A stretch of DNA of 5,526 nucleotides from the UHGV virus genome UHGV-0397512. One strand, 5' to 3'. Source of the stretch: a virus. The translations under genes were made by a program, and so were the position numbers. Below are positions 1,743 to 5,526 of this stretch, piece by piece (the stretch's first letter is position 1; each line of letters opens with the position of its first letter). The notes beneath the pieces were generated by a model. The model saw only the letters and a list, made by a program, of their open reading frames with translations. It made no database searches and had not been told where the DNA came from.

Positions 1743-1917
1743 AATATGCAAAGGATATGCAGACCTAATCATAAAAAAAGAAAAACTAATTCGTGAAATA
1801 TGGGAAACAGAATTTGCGATCAAAAAAATAGAGAATATATTGACGCGAAACAGAATAATAAAGACTACGAATGTAGAGGAGACATCGGAGACAGGTCTAC
1901 CAATCTCACAAGACTAA
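1720..1917 (+). CDS. Hypothetical small protein (65 aa), predicted helical and Glu/Lys/Ile-rich. Its start overlaps the 3' end of the Rep gene.
   Basis: An ATG at 1720 lies inside the last 23 nt of Rep. The protein-like composition (MTEREKSEICKGYADLIIKKEKLIREIWETEFAIKKIENIL...) is not the Arg/Ser-rich pattern of off-frame reading. It overlaps the next ORF by 118 nt, so only one of the two may be real across the overlap. Confidence 0.4.
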   Translation: MTEREKSEICKGYADLIIKKEKLIREIWETEFAIKKIENILTRNRIIKTTNVEETSETGLPISQD

Positions 1918-2156
1918 TCGGTGCAGAAAGAGTATCTCGACGAGACTTCAAATACGAGGGAACATACTACGTAACAGAAGATGGAGAAACATTCGACAAA
2001 GAATACGTAGAAACTCAAAAACCACAAAGAACCGGCGTCAACTTCTACGAAGTAAGCAACTGGATGTACAACGAAAAAAAACAAATGTACGAACCTGTTA
2101 TCAGAAGAATAGTAATGATCAAAAAAACCAACATTCAATTATCAATGGACCTATGA
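1800..2156 (+). CDS. Hypothetical protein (118 aa). The C-terminal two-thirds are aromatic-rich and protein-like.
   Basis: This is the first ATG after the frame-3 stop at 1791-1793. The non-overlapping part, 1918..2156 (GTYYVTEDGETFDKEYVETQKPQRTGVNFYEVSNWMYNEKKQMYEPVIRRIVMIKK), has balanced, protein-like composition. Its TGA stop (2154-2156) overlaps the ATG of the next ORF (2153-2155) in an ATGA arrangement, suggesting translational coupling. Confidence 0.5.
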   Translation: MGNRICDQKNREYIDAKQNNKDYECRGDIGDRSTNLTRLIGAERVSRRDFKYEGTYYVTEDGETFDKEYVETQKPQRTGVNFYEVSNWMYNEKKQMYEPVIRRIVMIKKTNIQLSMDL

Positions 2157-2323
2157 ATGAAAAAGTAAAAAAAATCGTAAAATGGATCGCGGTAATAGCA
2201 GCTGCAATCGGCGCTGCAGCCGCCGTAATCATGGAACAAGGATGCACTCACAAGCACTGCCTCAAAGCAAACGGCATCAAAATCGACACGATCGAAGTAT
2301 CAACATCAACAAAAATCAAGTAA
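2153..2323 (+). CDS. Small single-pass membrane protein (56 aa). It is not in the supplied ORF track. Candidate lysis or membrane-targeting protein.
   Basis: Manual translation of frame 2 gives MNEKVKKIVKWIAVIAAAIGAAAAVIMEQGCTHKHCLKANGIKIDTIEVSTSTKIK, with TAA at 2321-2323. It has a short basic N-terminus, one roughly 18-20 residue hydrophobic helix (WIAVIAAAIGAAAAVIM), and a polar C-tail containing C-x-H-x-H-C. Ala codons gca/gct/gcc match the usage in VP1 and Rep. The overlapping frame-1 ORF 2182..2394 reads the same Ala-rich stretch as Arg/Ser/Cys, an off-frame signature. The start is coupled to the upstream ORF by an ATGA overlap. The downstream ORF starts 2 nt after its stop. Confidence 0.5.
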   Translation: MNEKVKKIVKWIAVIAAAIGAAAAVIMEQGCTHKHCLKANGIKIDTIEVSTSTKIK

Positions 2324-2324
2324 C

Positions 2325-2630
2325 ATGGATAAAAGATTCAGAAATCAGCTACTTGCTGAAAGCGGAAAAAGAGAGGAAGAAATCGAAAGCGTAAACCTCG
2401 AAATCGAAGAAAGAGAAGTATCGGAAAACGGCCCGTTCGTGCTGATCCGCAACAAAAAAAACAAATGGGTAATCACGATGTGCGGCTCGCTCATAAACGG
2501 GAAAGAGTTCGACACTAAAGAGGAAGCTGAAGAACACATAGCTAAAAAAGAGTGGGACGACATCCTAACTGCAACACTCGTATTCATCTTACACGTAAAC
2601 AATGAATTGGAAAACACTCAAAAAAAATAA
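2325..2630 (+). CDS. Hypothetical protein (101 aa), with an acidic N-terminal half and a hydrophobic C-terminal segment.
   Basis: The ATG at 2325 follows the previous stop at 2321-2323 directly. The sequence is MDKRFRNQLLAESGKREEEIESVNLEIEEREVSENGPFVLIRNKKNKWVITMCGSLINGKEFDTKEEAEEHIAKKEWDDILTATLVFILHV... The stop at 2628-2630 lies 3 nt before the VP1 start. No recognisable family. By position and size it could be a scaffolding or DNA-binding accessory protein. Confidence 0.5.
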   Translation: MDKRFRNQLLAESGKREEEIESVNLEIEEREVSENGPFVLIRNKKNKWVITMCGSLINGKEFDTKEEAEEHIAKKEWDDILTATLVFILHVNNELENTQKK

Positions 2631-2633
2631 GCC

Positions 2634-4679
2634 ATGAAAAAAACATTAGGAGGAGACAGAATCCGAAGCGAAAGCAAAATGGAAGTATATCTGCCCAATT
2701 TCGGTAGATCATCGCATAACGTAGGAAAAATAATCCGAACATCGCAAGCGTGCGGCACAATCGTTCCCTATTGGTGCCAAATAGGTATGGACGGAACGAC
2801 ATTTTACATCGATATCACAACAAAAGTAAAAACGCTGCCGACAACCGGACCTGTATTCGGCAGTTTCAAACATCAAATCGACGTATTCGTAATTCCGATC
2901 AGACTCTATATAGCAGCGCTGCATAATAACGCTTTAGGAGTAGGATTGAACATGAGTAAAGTACTACTACCACAATTTCAAGTGTACACAGCCAATGCAT
3001 CGATCTACGAAAACGACACCAATAGAGGGCAAGTCAATCCGAGCTCGCTGCTCTCATACCTGGGGATCAAGGGGTTCGGGCGATCCGATGTAAATCAATA
3101 CTTCCGAAGATTTCCTGCAATATTCAATCTGGCATACTGGGACATATTCAAAAACTATTACGCCAACAAGCAAGAAGAAAACGCATACGTAGTCACCGGA
3201 ATAAACCATATTTGGAAGAAAATCAGCGCAGGAGATGGAGTTGCTTGGAATAGAGAGTGGACAGAAAACTTAAGTGAAGCATACCCACTAAATCCGTCAA
3301 GTCAAGCGCCGAGTTTCATCAAACTGGAATTCGAGGAAAAAATATCACCCGAGGAAGTCAATGAAATACAATTCTTAACAAATGATCCGGAAAAACCTAC
3401 ACAAAATATCAACAAACTAACAAAACTCGGAGATGCCTTCATATTCGAGCGAACAGACCCGGAAGCAATGGGACTAAAGAAACCAGAAAACCCGAAAAAG
3501 GCAACCAACATTTACGTGTACCAAGTCAAGAAGCCAATCAAAATTGCATACAATCTAAACATAGCAGGAAATAACTTCTTGACAATGCCGGACAACCAAA
3601 AAATCAAACTAACACCATTTCCATTAAAAAACATCGACGACGAACGAACTTCAATCTTAGCGGCACCCAGCTCCGCGGCATATATGTTAGACCATGCAAA
3701 AATGCCATACAAGGCAGCATCGGGGACTATAAACCTGCCGAGTTATGATCGGAAAAAAACATATCACAGCTCAAATGCATGGTACTCACAAGCGGGATTA
3801 GCGGTAAAAACACACCTTAGCGACAGGTTCAATAACTGGCTGAACACCGAATGGATCGACGGAACGACCGGAGGGATCAACGCGATTACAGCGGTAGATG
3901 TGAGCGACGGAAAACTCACGATGGATGCTCTGATCCTCCAGAAGAAAATCTTCAACATGCTGAACCGCGTAGCTATTACAGACGGCACTTATCAGGCGTG
4001 GAGAGAGGCAACGTACGGGATCAGAAGTACAACACTACCCGAATCTCCTATCTTCTGCGGCGGAATGCAGAGCGAAATCGCATTCGACGAAATCGTATCG
4101 AACTCAGCAACAGAGGAGGAGCCATTAGGAACACTTGCCGGCCGAGGAGTCGCAACCATGTACAAATCCGGAAGGGGCTTAAAGATCAAATGCACGGAAC
4201 CAAGCATGATCATGGCCTTAGGATCGATTACTCCTCGAGTCGATTACAGTCAAGGCAACAAGTGGTGGACGAGACTGCAAAATATGGATGACTTCCATAA
4301 GCCGACATTGGACGCAATCGGATTTCAAGAGCTGATAGCAGAAGAAGCAGCTGCATGGAGTACAGAAACCACTGAAAACTACACACACAAGTACCAATCA
4401 TTAGGAAAACAACCTTCATGGATCGAATACACAACGGATGTAAACGAAACGTACGGCGAATTTGCCGCGGGAATGCCTTTAGCATTCATGTGTTTAAACA
4501 GAGTATACGAAGAAGGTACAGATGGAACAATTTCTAACGCATCGACGTACATCGATCCGACAATATATAACAATATATTCGCAGAGTCGAGACTGAGCTC
4601 GCAAAACTTCTGGGTACAAGTAGCGTTCGACGTAACAGCACGTCGAGTAATGTCAGCAAAACAAATTCCAAATTTATAA
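2634..4679 (+). CDS. Major capsid protein (Microviridae VP1 / F-protein family), 681 aa.
   Basis: The N-terminal region LPNFGRSSHNVGKIIRTSQACGTIVPYWCQIGMDGTTFYIDITTKVKTLPTTGPVFGSFKHQIDVFVIPIRLY follows the conserved VP1 pattern (R-S-x-H...T...G-x-L-x-P......D-T-F......FFVP-x-R-L-W/Y). The C-terminus ...FWVQVAFDVTARRVMSAKQIPNL also matches the VP1 tail pattern. It is the longest ORF in the genome. An alternative start is Met16 at nt 2679. Confidence 0.92.
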   Translation: MKKTLGGDRIRSESKMEVYLPNFGRSSHNVGKIIRTSQACGTIVPYWCQIGMDGTTFYIDITTKVKTLPTTGPVFGSFKHQIDVFVIPIRLYIAALHNNALGVGLNMSKVLLPQFQVYTANASIYENDTNRGQVNPSSLLSYLGIKGFGRSDVNQYFRRFPAIFNLAYWDIFKNYYANKQEENAYVVTGINHIWKKISAGDGVAWNREWTENLSEAYPLNPSSQAPSFIKLEFEEKISPEEVNEIQFLTNDPEKPTQNINKLTKLGDAFIFERTDPEAMGLKKPENPKKATNIYVYQVKKPIKIAYNLNIAGNNFLTMPDNQKIKLTPFPLKNIDDERTSILAAPSSAAYMLDHAKMPYKAASGTINLPSYDRKKTYHSSNAWYSQAGLAVKTHLSDRFNNWLNTEWIDGTTGGINAITAVDVSDGKLTMDALILQKKIFNMLNRVAITDGTYQAWREATYGIRSTTLPESPIFCGGMQSEIAFDEIVSNSATEEEPLGTLAGRGVATMYKSGRGLKIKCTEPSMIMALGSITPRVDYSQGNKWWTRLQNMDDFHKPTLDAIGFQELIAEEAAAWSTETTENYTHKYQSLGKQPSWIEYTTDVNETYGEFAAGMPLAFMCLNRVYEEGTDGTISNASTYIDPTIYNNIFAESRLSSQNFWVQVAFDVTARRVMSAKQIPNL

Positions 4680-4683
4680 TACC

Positions 4684-5007
4684 ATGAAAACAGCAAAAAA
4701 TAGAAAGGGATGTATCGATAATCCGAACCTTACCTACGAGGCAGAACCGAGGGAAGTGAAACTAAGAAAGATAATCAGCGGAGAAGCCAGTAATATGGAG
4801 GATGGAGTATTCCCAATAATCTACACGGAAAAAAAAGATGGAGTACAACCCGAATACGACATAAGAACAGATCGATTCGAAGTAGCGATAGACGCAATAG
4901 ATAAAATCAACCAAAGCACAGCAAGCCAAATCGCAAAAAACAAGGGCGAAACCGAAGCTGCGAAAAATTTCGAGACAGAAGGAAAAACCGATCCCGAAAA
5001 AAGCTAA
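4684..5007 (+). CDS. Hypothetical protein (107 aa), encoded between VP1 and VP2. Possible scaffolding-like accessory protein.
   Basis: The ATG lies 5 nt after the VP1 stop. The composition is protein-like (…GVFPIIYTEKKDGVQPEYDIRTDRFEVAIDAIDKINQSTASQIAKNKGETEAAKNFETEGKTDPEKS), not an off-frame pattern. It is followed 30 nt downstream by a strong hairpin plus T-tract. Confidence 0.55.
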   Translation: MKTAKNRKGCIDNPNLTYEAEPREVKLRKIISGEASNMEDGVFPIIYTEKKDGVQPEYDIRTDRFEVAIDAIDKINQSTASQIAKNKGETEAAKNFETEGKTDPEKS

Positions 5008-5036
5008 AGCAGTCGTATAAAGCTCTACCAAAACTC

Positions 5037-5069
5037 AAAGAGGGGGGATATTTCCGCCCCCCCTCTTTT
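5037..5069 (+). terminator. Perfect GC-rich hairpin followed by a T-tract: an intrinsic-terminator-like element. Alternatively an ssDNA origin or priming stem-loop.
   Basis: AAAGAGGGGGG (5037-5047) pairs with CCCCCCTCTTT (5058-5068). The core is G6/C6 with loop ATATTTCCGC, and the stem runs into TCTTTT. It sits in the only large non-coding region, after the VP1/ORF107 block and before VP2. Confidence 0.55.
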
Positions 5070-5163
5070 AACCCTCGTAAATACATGTAGCACAGGGCGG
5101 TAGACGTTTATACATATATAACAAGAACATAGGTATAAATTCTTTTAGAAAAAAGAACGAAAA
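5070..5163 (+). promoter_or_regulatory. AT-rich intergenic leader upstream of the VP2 gene. Putative promoter or regulatory region.
   Basis: This is the only non-coding stretch longer than 40 nt in the genome. It is AT-rich (…GTTTATACATATATAACAAGAACATAGGTATAAATTCTTTTAGAAAAAAGAACGAAAA). It contains TATAAA and TATATA elements but no clean sigma70 -35/-10 pair and no Bacteroides TAnnTTTG. The promoter assignment rests on position only. Confidence 0.25.
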
Positions 5164-5526
5164 ATGGACTTTAAAAAACTATTAGAATTACTCGAAAAAG
5201 GAGAGGATGTTATGAACCCTTTATCGGGAATCATGGGTAAAGCATCAGGAATCCTCAACATGCTGGGCATAGGCAGGAGGAAACAGATAGAGCAACAAAA
5301 AGAAATGGTGGAGAACGCAGCCCAAATAAATTACAAATATGGAGAAATGGCTGCGAATAACGCATTCGAAAGACAGCAAGTGTTATATAACAGAACCTAT
5401 CAAGACCAAAGCTACGCCAACCAAGTCGCACAAATGGATGCGGCGGGATTATCTCCCGGCTTAATGTACGGCAAAGGAGGTGCCGGAGGCGGAGGAGCCG
5501 GTTCGACAACCGGTGCTCCAATGGGT
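5164..5526 (+). CDS. Minor capsid / DNA pilot protein (VP2-like), N-terminal portion. The ORF runs off the window end with a complete codon and continues in frame at nt 1.
   Basis: Translation gives MDFKKLLELLEKGEDVMNPLSGIMGKASGILNMLGIGRRKQIEQQKEMVENAAQINYKYGEMAANNAFERQQVLYNRTYQDQSYANQVAQMDAAGLSPGLMYGKGGAGGGGAGSTTGAPMG. The GLSPGLMYG motif followed by a Gly-rich tract is characteristic of microvirus VP2 N-terminal regions. 363 nt equals 121 complete codons, so the frame is phase-continuous with frame 1 at nt 1. An alternative start is Met at 5212, preceded by GGAGAGG (5200-5206) with 5-nt spacing. Confidence 0.7.
   Translation, partial: MDFKKLLELLEKGEDVMNPLSGIMGKASGILNMLGIGRRKQIEQQKEMVENAAQINYKYGEMAANNAFERQQVLYNRTYQDQSYANQVAQMDAAGLSPGLMYGKGGAGGGGAGSTTGAPMG

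What the first reader, a model, noticed from the sequence alone, without database searches (positions are those of the whole stretch)
2153..2323. Unlisted 56-aa single-pass membrane protein: candidate single-gene lysis (amurin-like) or membrane-targeting factor
Frame 2 encodes MNEKVKKIVKWIAVIAAAIGAAAAVIMEQGCTHKHCLKANGIKIDTIEVSTSTKIK. This was found by manual translation; it is below the ORF-track length cutoff. It has a positively charged N-terminus, one Ala/Ile/Val-rich helix of about 18-20 residues, and a short polar tail with a C-x-H-x-H-C cluster. Its start codon overlaps the stop of the upstream ORF (ATGA at 2153-2156), and the next ORF begins 2 nt after its stop, which argues that it is translated. 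Outside phiX-like E proteins, microviruses of this type lack an identified lysis gene. A small N-terminal-TM protein is the architecture of known single-gene lysis proteins such as phiX174 E. It shows no sequence resemblance to E as far as I can judge.
Basis: partly seen in the sequence, partly recalled or inferred. Interest (0 to 1): 0.65.

Follow-up and report, generated by a model that had tools for sequence, protein, structure and literature searches.

The report
Conserved small membrane/lipoprotein-like gene in gut microvirus
The 56-codon gene is real and strongly conserved, is an offshoot of a large unannotated family of tiny lipoprotein-like proteins in gut microviruses, and sits where related viruses carry cell-wall-cutting enzymes, so it is a good but unproven candidate for how these viruses burst their host.

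Summary
The ORF at 2153-2323 exists exactly as described. It is intact and 56 codons long in 34 of 34 close relatives. dN/dS is 0.08 overall, and 0.02 for the first 31 codons. The ATGA and TAA-N-ATG junctions are conserved.

Two corrections apply. The "C-x-H-x-H-C cluster" is private to this genome: C36 occurs in 2 of 103 variants, and only C31 is invariant. The protein is also not an orphan. Profile comparisons link it to at least 3,596 clusters of 60-100-aa proteins on about 5.5-6 kb microvirus contigs and Bacteroidales prophages. All of the 120 best hits carry a canonical lipoprotein signal with lipobox and Cys.

The window's lineage has a degenerate lipobox ([MLI]-E-Q-G-C). Its hydrophobic helix is better conserved than its tail, which suggests an uncleaved anchor with a small-xxx-small motif.

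No known family matches it (phiX174 E, colicin lysis, spanin, entericidin, PHROGs, PDB).

Across relatives, this gene occupies the same slot upstream of VP1 as peptidoglycan peptidases with small TM ORFs, DUF5675 lysin-like genes, or a two-helix membrane protein. No genome carries two of these modules.

I favour a lysis effector (about 0.45). Superinfection exclusion or another accessory membrane role remains open.

The parts
2153..2323 (+). 56-codon CDS plus TAA stop: small exported membrane/lipoprotein-like protein
   Evidence: Intact in 34/34 relatives with dN/dS 0.08. 190 protein clusters at 82-98% identity.
2153..2156 (+). ATGA start/stop overlap with the upstream 118-aa ORF (translational-coupling geometry)
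   Evidence: TATGA is present in 34/34 relatives.
2153..2182 (+). Basic n-region, MNEKVKKIVK (net +3)
   Evidence: dN/dS 0.011. Charge count.
2183..2233 (+). Hydrophobic core W11-M27 with the small-xxx-small motif A16-x3-G20-x3-A24
   Evidence: KD15 2.69. A16 in 101/103, G20 in 100/103, A24 in 95/103. Abundant synonymous change at invariant Ala codons. AF2 helix 3-29.
2234..2245 (+). E28-Q29-G30-C31: degenerate lipobox position with the invariant Cys
   Evidence: E in 102/103, Q in 102/103, G in 103/103, C in 103/103. The Cys aligns with the lipobox Cys of relatives. The motif fails PROSITE PS51257 only at position -3 (pattern check, regex).
2246..2320 (+). 25-residue polar tail with the HK motif and an amphipathic strand G-I-K-I-D45-T-I-E-V; D45 (2285-2287) is invariant
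   Evidence: dN/dS 0.17. D45 in 103/103 and invariant across subfamilies. hhalign pairs HCLKANGIKIDTIEV with YMLHKKGLHADSVEV.
2258..2260 (+). Codon 36 (TGC, Cys in this genome only): hypervariable site
   Evidence: 8 residues among 34 loci. 11 residues among 103 proteins, with C in 2.
1800..2156 (+). Context: upstream 118-aa ORF carrying the conserved 'Y-V-x-E/D-D-G' motif of the pre-VP1 gene set
2325..2630 (+). Context: downstream 101-aa ORF, the conserved gene that directly precedes VP1 throughout the clade
   Evidence: 36-genome cluster. Synteny.

Best explanation
This is a real late gene of a Bacteroidales-type (Alpavirinae-like) microvirus. It encodes a 56-aa protein that is inserted into the inner membrane.

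Topology and anchoring. The basic N-terminus stays in the cytoplasm, and a 25-residue strand-forming tail faces the periplasm.

Origin. The protein descends from a very large family of tiny microviral lipoproteins: a signal peptide, a lipobox Cys, and a 25-36-aa mature peptide. In this lineage two things have changed. The lipobox has degenerated to [MLI]-E-Q-G-C. The hydrophobic helix, which carries an A16xxxG20xxxA24 packing motif, has become the most constrained part. The protein therefore probably stays anchored by its own uncleaved helix.

Most likely function: the virus's lysis effector. It would be co-translated with the structural genes and accumulate in the envelope. It would cause lysis without any enzyme of its own. 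The mechanism would be either helix-helix binding to a host envelope-biogenesis membrane protein (the protein-antibiotic mode of phiX174 E and LysM) or colicin-lysis-protein-like envelope destabilisation.

What is shown: the gene is real and conserved; it is hydrophobic; it belongs to this family; its synteny is as described.

What is inferred: topology, lack of signal cleavage, Bacteroidota host, the lysis function and its target.
For: Gene reality:
- 34/34 intact, dN/dS 0.08, other frames closed, junctions conserved.

Family membership:
- A W-family HMM hits group B at E=1.4e-4 in a 7,650-ORF local database, and iteration reaches groups A, A' and C, including prophages.
- hhalign W vs B gives 78.8% (E 1.7e-5). 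W vs A/A'/C gives 89.7% (E 1.8e-6). The Cys is in register in both.
- The joint profile finds 3,596 clusters, almost all on 5-6 kb contigs. 120/120 of the best have a PS51257-type lipobox.
- A member lies 3 nt upstream of VP1 in a prophage between lon and aspS on a 199-kb contig.

Host:
- VP1 relatives are integrated in Dysgonomonas, Phocaeicola and Paludibacteraceae contigs.

Anchor rather than cleaved signal:
- In the W lineage, pre-Cys identity is 0.91 against 0.70 post-Cys. In canonical-lipobox groups the order is reversed (0.73/0.87, 0.72/0.96, 0.87/0.91).
- Position -3 is always acidic.

Lysis:
- The genome has no peptidase and no other hydrophobic ORF.
- In relatives, the same slot upstream of the conserved gene pair before VP1 holds one of four things: this family; a two-helix membrane protein; an M15/LAS peptidase plus an adjacent small TM ORF; or DUF5675, a C82-like lysin candidate (bioRxiv 10.64898/2026.04.11.717860).
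- No genome among 58 carries two modules. Fisher p is 0.026 and 0.0023, uncorrected for phylogeny.
- The cultured Bacteroides microvirus phiHBP1 has the M15 peptidase and no family member.
Against: - There is no experiment of any kind.
- 26 of 58 near-complete relatives, 10 of 31 VP1 lineages, and the closest GenBank relative L001 carry none of the four modules. An unrecognised lysis route therefore exists in the clade and could operate here too.
- The mutual exclusivity is confounded by phylogeny, and the slot could simply be a hot spot for accessory genes.
- Known single-gene lysis proteins are usually poorly conserved and often embedded in other genes. This one is a free-standing gene under very strong constraint.
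- Phage-encoded lipoproteins with a known single-gene role are mostly superinfection-exclusion proteins or spanin subunits (own knowledge).
- The link between the window's subfamily and the canonical lipoproteins rests on moderate profile scores (79-90%) that include a compositionally biased hydrophobic segment.
Confidence: 0.45

Rival explanations
1. It is a superinfection-exclusion or receptor-masking envelope protein. The small lipoprotein or anchored peptide would be exported to the periplasm or outer membrane. There its beta-strand tail would bind the virus's receptor or entry channel. This would block secondary infection, or stop progeny being inactivated on cell debris, as T5 Llp and phi80/N15 Cor do.
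For: - The family has lipoprotein-signal architecture.
- Its distribution among relatives is patchy, and it is absent from L001.
- It is retained in integrated prophages.
- The exposed tail has one hypervariable site, position 36, and other variable positions.
- Bacteroides phage susceptibility is known to depend on surface lipoproteins and capsules (cited in PMC13064476).
Against: - The mature part is only 25-36 residues, against about 60-80 for Llp and Cor (own knowledge).
- There is no HMM match to any such family.
- The gene is embedded and translationally coupled inside the late/structural block, not placed as a moron with its own promoter.
- Positional replacement by peptidase cassettes is not expected for an exclusion gene.
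- In the window's lineage the helix, not the exposed tail, is the constrained part.
Confidence: 0.2
2. It is a non-lytic accessory membrane factor, comparable to the 56-aa membrane-associated, non-essential phiX174 protein K. It would tune burst size, anchor replication or assembly at the membrane, or assist DNA delivery. Lysis would be done by something else, for example a moonlighting structural protein as in Qbeta A2.
For: - Many relatives lack every recognisable lysis module, so an unidentified lysis mechanism exists in the clade.
- Strong purifying selection on a specific helix face fits a stable protein-protein interaction.
- Small membrane proteins in microviruses are not necessarily lysis proteins (phiX174 K; own knowledge).
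Against: - There is no positive evidence for any such role.
- It shares a slot with cell-wall hydrolases.
- The exported tail with an invariant Cys and Asp points to a periplasmic rather than cytoplasmic site of action.
Confidence: 0.2
3. It is the outer-membrane half of a spanin-like system, or a holin that needs a partner enzyme. It would not be an autonomous effector.
For: It is small and has a lipoprotein-like signal, like Rz1-type o-spanins. In relatives, small TM ORFs sit next to peptidases.
Against: - The genome encodes no endolysin-like domain.
- It encodes no second membrane protein that could act as an i-spanin.
- There is no C-terminal TM segment as in unimolecular spanins.
- Family members and peptidases never co-occur.
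Confidence: 0.08
4. It is a chance ORF that is not expressed.
For: The ORF is short, below usual gene-calling cut-offs, and unannotated in GenBank relatives.
Against: - dN/dS is 0.08 with many synonymous changes.
- 34/34 relatives keep it intact, and the alternative frames are closed.
- It is a hydrophobic ORF on an A-rich, T-poor strand.
Confidence: 0.01

Closest known systems
phiX174 protein E (amurin; Pfam Microvir_lysis)
   Same: A small microvirus-encoded protein with a single N-terminal hydrophobic helix, no enzymatic domain, and a candidate single-gene lysis role. The helix is the most constrained part, as in E (the comparison with E is from own knowledge).
   Different: - No sequence or HMM similarity.
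- No conserved Pro in the helix.
- A free-standing gene, not embedded in a scaffold gene.
- 56 aa against 91 aa.
- Predicted N-in/C-out with a periplasmic tail, whereas E has a cytoplasmic C-domain that needs SlyD (own knowledge).
- It descends from a lipoprotein-signal family.
Colicin lysis proteins / bacteriocin release proteins (Pfam Lysis_col) and entericidin B
   Same: Tiny precursors (45-56 aa) made of a lipoprotein signal plus a roughly 25-30-aa mature peptide. They cause (quasi-)lysis without enzymatic activity. In BRPs the stable signal peptide itself contributes to lethality (own knowledge). This parallels the strongly conserved helix here.
   Different: - No HMM match. The only hit is a sub-threshold match (E 0.015) of a relative's signal peptide to entericidin B.
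- Those proteins are plasmid- or chromosome-encoded in Enterobacteria, not viral.
- The window's own lipobox is non-canonical (E at -3).
ssRNA-phage single-gene lysis proteins (MS2 L, LysM, and the diverse Sgls of PMC7693330)
   Same: Short membrane peptides that differ between lineages and stand in for a holin-endolysin cassette in minimal genomes.
   Different: Those are mostly poorly conserved, de novo, embedded genes. None is described as a lipoprotein. This family has thousands of members with a conserved Cys, Asp and strand motif.
Phage lipoproteins Rz1 (o-spanin), T5 Llp and Cor
   Same: Phage-encoded lipoprotein signals that deliver a small product to the periplasmic side of the envelope.
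   Different: There is no i-spanin partner and no endolysin. The mature part is much shorter than Llp or Cor. There is no family match.
phiX174 protein K
   Same: A 56-aa hydrophobic microvirus protein associated with the membrane (own knowledge).
   Different: K is encoded in overlapping frames, is non-essential, and has no signal- or lipobox-like organisation. I did not test homology directly; no Pfam hit appeared.

Membership tests
phiX174 E / Microvir_lysis (amurin) | Sequence match to the family profile | tested here: not met
   Pfam hmmscan at E<=0.1 returned no family. PHROGs returned none. PDB returned none at E<=10.
phiX174 E / Microvir_lysis (amurin) | Gene embedded out of frame in a scaffold gene; TM helix with an essential proline | tested here: not met
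   The gene is free-standing between two ORFs. There is no Pro in residues 1-31 in any of 103 variants.
phiX174 E / Microvir_lysis (amurin) | Lysis through inhibition of MraY | not testable with these tools
   This needs expression and resistant-mutant mapping.
Bacterial lipoprotein precursor (PROSITE PS51257 rule) | K/R in the n-region, an uncharged h-region, and Cys between residues 15 and 35 | tested here: met
   K4, K6 and K7 are present. W11-M27 is uncharged. The Cys is at position 31.
Bacterial lipoprotein precursor (PROSITE PS51257 rule) | Lipobox [LIVMFWSTAG]2-[LIVMFYSTAGCQ]-[AGS]-C | tested here: not met
   The window has M-E-Q-G-C. E at -3 violates the pattern and is fixed in the lineage (E 102/103, D 1/103). 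Relatives in other subfamilies meet it, 120/120.
Bacterial lipoprotein precursor (PROSITE PS51257 rule) | Actual diacylglyceryl modification and signal peptidase II cleavage | not testable with these tools
   This needs labelling, globomycin treatment or mass spectrometry. No LipoP or SignalP was available.
Small lipoprotein-like family of Alpavirinae-like microviruses (defined here) | Profile similarity with the Cys and the D-[ST]-[IV]-x-[IV] strand in register | tested here: met
   HMM E 1.4e-4. hhalign 78.8% and 89.7%. C31 and D45 are the only invariant columns across subfamilies. Support is moderate, not decisive.
Small lipoprotein-like family of Alpavirinae-like microviruses (defined here) | Location in the small-gene block between Rep and VP1, on the virion-gene strand | tested here: met
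   In the window the order relative to the 'DxDG' gene is swapped.
Colicin lysis protein / BRP; entericidin | Match to the family profile | tested here: not met
   No Pfam or NCBIfam hit for the window protein.
Two-component or unimolecular spanin | Partner i-spanin with an N-terminal TM segment and a periplasmic coiled coil, or a C-terminal TM segment in the same chain; an endolysin in the genome | tested here: not met
   There is no other hydrophobic + strand ORF. There is no hydrolase domain. The tail has no TM segment.
Holin | Small TM protein encoded next to an endolysin | tested here: not met
   The window has no endolysin. By contrast, relatives with M15/LAS peptidases do have adjacent small TM ORFs.
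Superinfection-exclusion lipoproteins (Llp, Cor) | Family profile match; a folded mature domain of about 60-80 aa that binds the receptor | tested here: not met
   There are no profile matches. The mature part would be 26 residues. Receptor binding is not testable here.

The most novel reading that the evidence does not exclude
The window's gene and its thousands of relatives would be a previously unrecognised class of single-gene lysis effectors in Bacteroidales-infecting microviruses. They would be tiny lipoproteins, or lipoprotein-derived signal-anchor peptides, that kill from the periplasmic side of the envelope. They would be functionally interchangeable with endolysin-holin cassettes. 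This would supply the missing lysis gene of Alpavirinae-like viruses. It would also provide a large natural library of peptides that target envelope biogenesis in Bacteroidota.
Probability: 0.35. Interest if true: 0.8.

Novelty: new variant of a known kind. Interest (0 to 1): 0.6.

Why it matters
- How microviruses other than phiX174-like ones lyse their hosts is an open question. phiX174 E has no homologue in Alpavirinae (PMC3091885), and only some genomes carry M15 peptidases (PMC3394797).
- This analysis turns one short unannotated ORF into a defined and very large family: at least 3,596 clusters, with no Pfam, PHROG or NCBIfam model and no description in the searched literature.
- The family has clear invariant residues (Cys, Asp), a lipoprotein-type export signal, and a genomic slot shared with cell-wall hydrolases.
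- That makes the lysis question directly testable with a few expression constructs and point mutants.
- If confirmed, it would give new peptide inhibitors of envelope biogenesis in Bacteroidota, a dominant gut phylum.
- If the role is instead superinfection exclusion, it would be the first such function described for a microvirus of this group.

Tried and rejected
- tblastn of the 56-aa protein against 50,697 GenBank phage records found no match. Subfamily A and B queries found only 6 and 1 records, all hypothetical or unannotated. One 'similar to VP5' label belongs to a different overlapping ORF.
- Pfam, PHROGs and NCBIfam scans of the window protein and of eight relatives gave only sub-threshold hits to lipoprotein signal peptides.
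- The PDB sequence search found nothing.
- A library-wide profile search of the window's subfamily (1.84 billion representatives) returned only itself, fragments and chimeras. It also returned one Cys-rich repeat protein, P0132, which I judge to be chance.
- The minus-strand control for the lipobox pattern was uninformative. The complementary strand is T-rich and produces hydrophobic Cys-containing ORFs in 18/83 genomes.
- Sigma-70 and Bacteroides-type (TAnnTTTG) promoter scans were at chance level.
- The metal-binding Cys/His cluster idea was rejected.
- Signal peptidase I cleavage was rejected because there is no small residue at -3 before C31.
- I attempted host assignment from two longer contigs holding this lineage (L070, L071). 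They are joined to foreign DNA at the Gly-rich VP2 region or to other phage-like genes. I could not tell integration from chimeric assembly.
- Lineage-level clustering shows that the module exclusivity is not independent of phylogeny.

Full report
WHAT THE WINDOW IS. The 5,526-nt window is a complete, circularly permuted microvirus genome with all genes on the + strand.
- The pilot protein VP2 wraps from 5164 through the end of the window to 846.
- Rep lies at 885-1742. Four small ORFs follow, at 1720-1917, 1800-2156, 2153-2323 and 2325-2630.
- The major capsid protein VP1 (681 aa) lies at 2634-4679, followed by a 107-aa ORF at 4684-5007.
- Its nearest GenBank relatives are faecal microviruses with 50-57% VP1 identity.
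- More distant VP1 relatives (37-44%) are integrated in Dysgonomonas, Phocaeicola and Paludibacteraceae contigs.
- I therefore treat it as an Alpavirinae-like virus of Bacteroidales. This host assignment is an inference.

The ORF, its translation, the ATGA overlap at 2153-2156 and the TAA-C-ATG junction are as stated.
- The uncharged core W11-M27 has a Kyte-Doolittle 15-mer value of 2.69. AlphaFold2 models residues 3-29 as a helix (pLDDT 85-89) and the tail as a low-confidence hairpin.
- The coding strand is 41% A and 17.6% T. This is the only small hydrophobic reading frame on it.
- All 34 close relatives with a full-length match keep a 56-codon ORF.
- Pairwise NG86 dN/dS is 0.08. For comparison, Rep is 0.095, VP1 0.25 and the upstream 118-aa ORF 0.49. 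It is 0.011 for codons 1-10, 0.023 for codons 11-31 and 0.17 for the tail. Invariant Ala codons use three or four synonymous codons each, and both other frames contain stops in all 34.
- Both gene junctions are conserved in 34/34.
- It is a real gene.

ONE DETAIL DOES NOT HOLD. Position 36 is the most variable site in the protein. Cys occurs there in 2 of 103 unique variants. H33 and H35 are replaced by N and Y in many variants. 100 of 103 variants have a single cysteine, C31. There is no conserved Cys/His cluster.

IT IS NOT AN ORPHAN. Small + strand ORFs with a basic start, a hydrophobic stretch and a lipobox-type Cys occur in 20 of 83 diverse relatives, against 0-2 in shuffles. Several lines link the window's subfamily (W) to them.
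- An HMM of W finds subfamily B (FTSC|SASYMLHKKGLHADSVEVWIKTKTNNAAY) at E=1.4e-4 in a local database of 7,650 ORFs. Iteration then reaches subfamilies A, A' and C, the last including prophage copies.
- hhalign gives W vs B 78.8% (E 1.7e-5) and W vs A/A'/C 89.7% (E 1.8e-6), with the Cys in register. B vs A gives 98.3%.
- Across the subfamilies only C31 and D45 are invariant.
- A joint profile retrieves 3,596 clusters at E<=1e-3 from 5.8 billion proteins. Nearly all are 60-100 aa on 5-6 kb contigs, with no Pfam domain and no informative name. All 120 best hits satisfy the PROSITE PS51257 lipobox pattern (FTSC, LTSC, TTGC and others).
- One member lies 3 nt upstream of VP1 in a prophage flanked by lon and aspS on a 199-kb contig.
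- By contrast, W alone finds nothing beyond itself in 1.84 billion representatives.

THE WINDOW'S LINEAGE IS AN ATYPICAL MEMBER. Two observations set it apart.
- Its lipobox position reads [M/L/I]-E-Q-G-C. An acidic residue at -3 is fixed in 103/103 variants, which violates the lipoprotein rule.
- In canonical subfamilies the post-Cys peptide is better conserved than the signal: 0.87 vs 0.73, 0.96 vs 0.72, and 0.91 vs 0.87. That is the pattern expected of a cleaved signal peptide. In W the order is reversed, 0.70 vs 0.91.
- The W helix also carries a near-invariant A16-x3-G20-x3-A24 motif.
- I infer that in this lineage the hydrophobic segment is retained and is itself functional.

NO KNOWN FAMILY FITS. 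No significant match was found in Pfam (including Microvir_lysis and Lysis_col), PHROGs, NCBIfam or the PDB. The literature library has no description of small lipoproteins in microviruses. Krupovic and Forterre found no homologue of E in the Bacteroidetes proviruses (PMC3091885). Roux et al. proposed M15 peptidases as endolysins for a minority of genomes (PMC3394797).

FUNCTION. The window encodes no hydrolase domain and no other membrane protein. The strongest indirect evidence is positional.
- Throughout the clade a conserved pair of genes precedes VP1: a 57-81-aa 'D-x-D-G' protein and a 91-127-aa protein that corresponds to the window's 101-aa ORF.
- Just upstream of that pair sits a variable module. 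It is one of four things:
  - this lipoprotein-like family;
  - a two-helix membrane protein;
  - an M15/LAS-type peptidase with an adjacent 32-46-aa TM ORF (PHROG endolysin E 1.3e-19; Hedgehog/DD-peptidase fold E 2e-4);
  - DUF5675, which a 2026 preprint groups structurally with C82 peptidases as a lysin candidate.
- Among 58 near-complete genomes the counts are 18, 5, 5 and 4 respectively. 26 have none, and no genome has two. Fisher p is 0.026 against hydrolases and 0.0023 against any other module.
- The cultured Bacteroides fragilis microvirus phiHBP1 has the M15 peptidase and no family member.
- In the window itself, the gene lies between the D-x-D-G gene (the 118-aa ORF) and the 101-aa gene, rather than upstream of both.

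CAVEATS.
- The exclusivity is not corrected for phylogeny. At the level of VP1 clusters (at least 60% identity) there are 14 family-only, 4 hydrolase-only, 2 two-helix-only, 1 mixed and 10 empty lineages.
- The closest GenBank relative, L001, has no hydrophobic small ORF at all.
- The slot could be a general accessory hot spot.
- Known single-gene phage lipoproteins are mostly exclusion factors or spanin subunits (own knowledge).
- I therefore give lysis about 0.45, superinfection exclusion or receptor masking about 0.2, another accessory membrane role about 0.2, and a partner-dependent spanin or holin role below 0.1.

VERDICT.
- The gene is best described as a new variant of the single-gene small-membrane-effector theme. 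It belongs to a large, previously undescribed family of microviral lipoprotein-like peptides.
- The finding is worth experimental follow-up.

Noticed in passing
window 5037-5068: A perfect 12-bp G/C-rich hairpin (AAAGAGGGGGGG-loop-CCCCCCCTCTTT) lies in the only sizeable non-coding region, 5008-5163. It could be a terminator or a replication or packaging signal.
   Followed up: no
window 5164-5526 joined to 1-846: The VP2 pilot gene wraps around the ends of the window. The break lies in a Gly-rich stretch (GAGGGGAGSTTGAP). Contig L070 is joined to foreign, bacterial-like DNA (integrase, AAA ATPase, zeta-toxin-like) at about the same place. This is either a chimeric assembly or an integration junction, and I did not resolve which.
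   Followed up: partly
L040 697-879; L041 2213-2365; L051 2888-3070; L060 3744-3902; L108 4679-4831: A separate family of 50-60-aa proteins with two hydrophobic helices and a P-T-x-N/K-N-W motif occupies the same slot upstream of VP1 in related microviruses.
   Followed up: partly
L084 (M15-like, then a 37-aa TM ORF), L091 468-899 + 901-999, L105 366-722 + 688-828: LAS/M15-type peptidase genes are immediately followed by 32-46-aa single-TM ORFs. These look like miniature endolysin-holin cassettes in microviruses.
   Followed up: partly
L081 488-991, L111 692-1147, L042, L050, L107: DUF5675 proteins (a C82-like lysin candidate per a 2026 preprint) are encoded in several related microviruses. 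In L081 and L111 a 57-aa two-TM ORF is embedded in another frame.
   Followed up: partly
L062 (NZ_JACWEU010000076.1, 5,673 nt): A stand-alone scaffold in an 'Acinetobacter lwoffii' assembly is a complete genome of this same virus lineage (VP1 91%, with the 56-aa ORF present). It is most likely a contaminant of that assembly rather than evidence for the host.
   Followed up: no
window 2258-2260 (codon 36): A single hypervariable codon, with 11 different residues among 103 variants, is flanked by nearly invariant positions. Diversity at this site is about what neutrality would give. Positive selection was not tested formally.
   Followed up: partly
L001 (PQ006946.1): The closest GenBank relative (VP1 56%) keeps the neighbouring small genes. 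It has no hydrophobic small ORF anywhere on the coding strand.
   Followed up: yes
P0132 (769 aa): A Cys-rich, Pro/Thr-linker repeat protein of eukaryotic appearance matches the tail motif (LKVNGVCVDTIQVS) five times in the library-wide search. I judge this to be a chance resemblance amplified by the repeats.
   Followed up: no
P0169: This protein has a subfamily-B signal region fused to a subfamily-A-type mature peptide. It is a natural intermediate or recombinant, and it supports common ancestry of the subfamilies.
   Followed up: no
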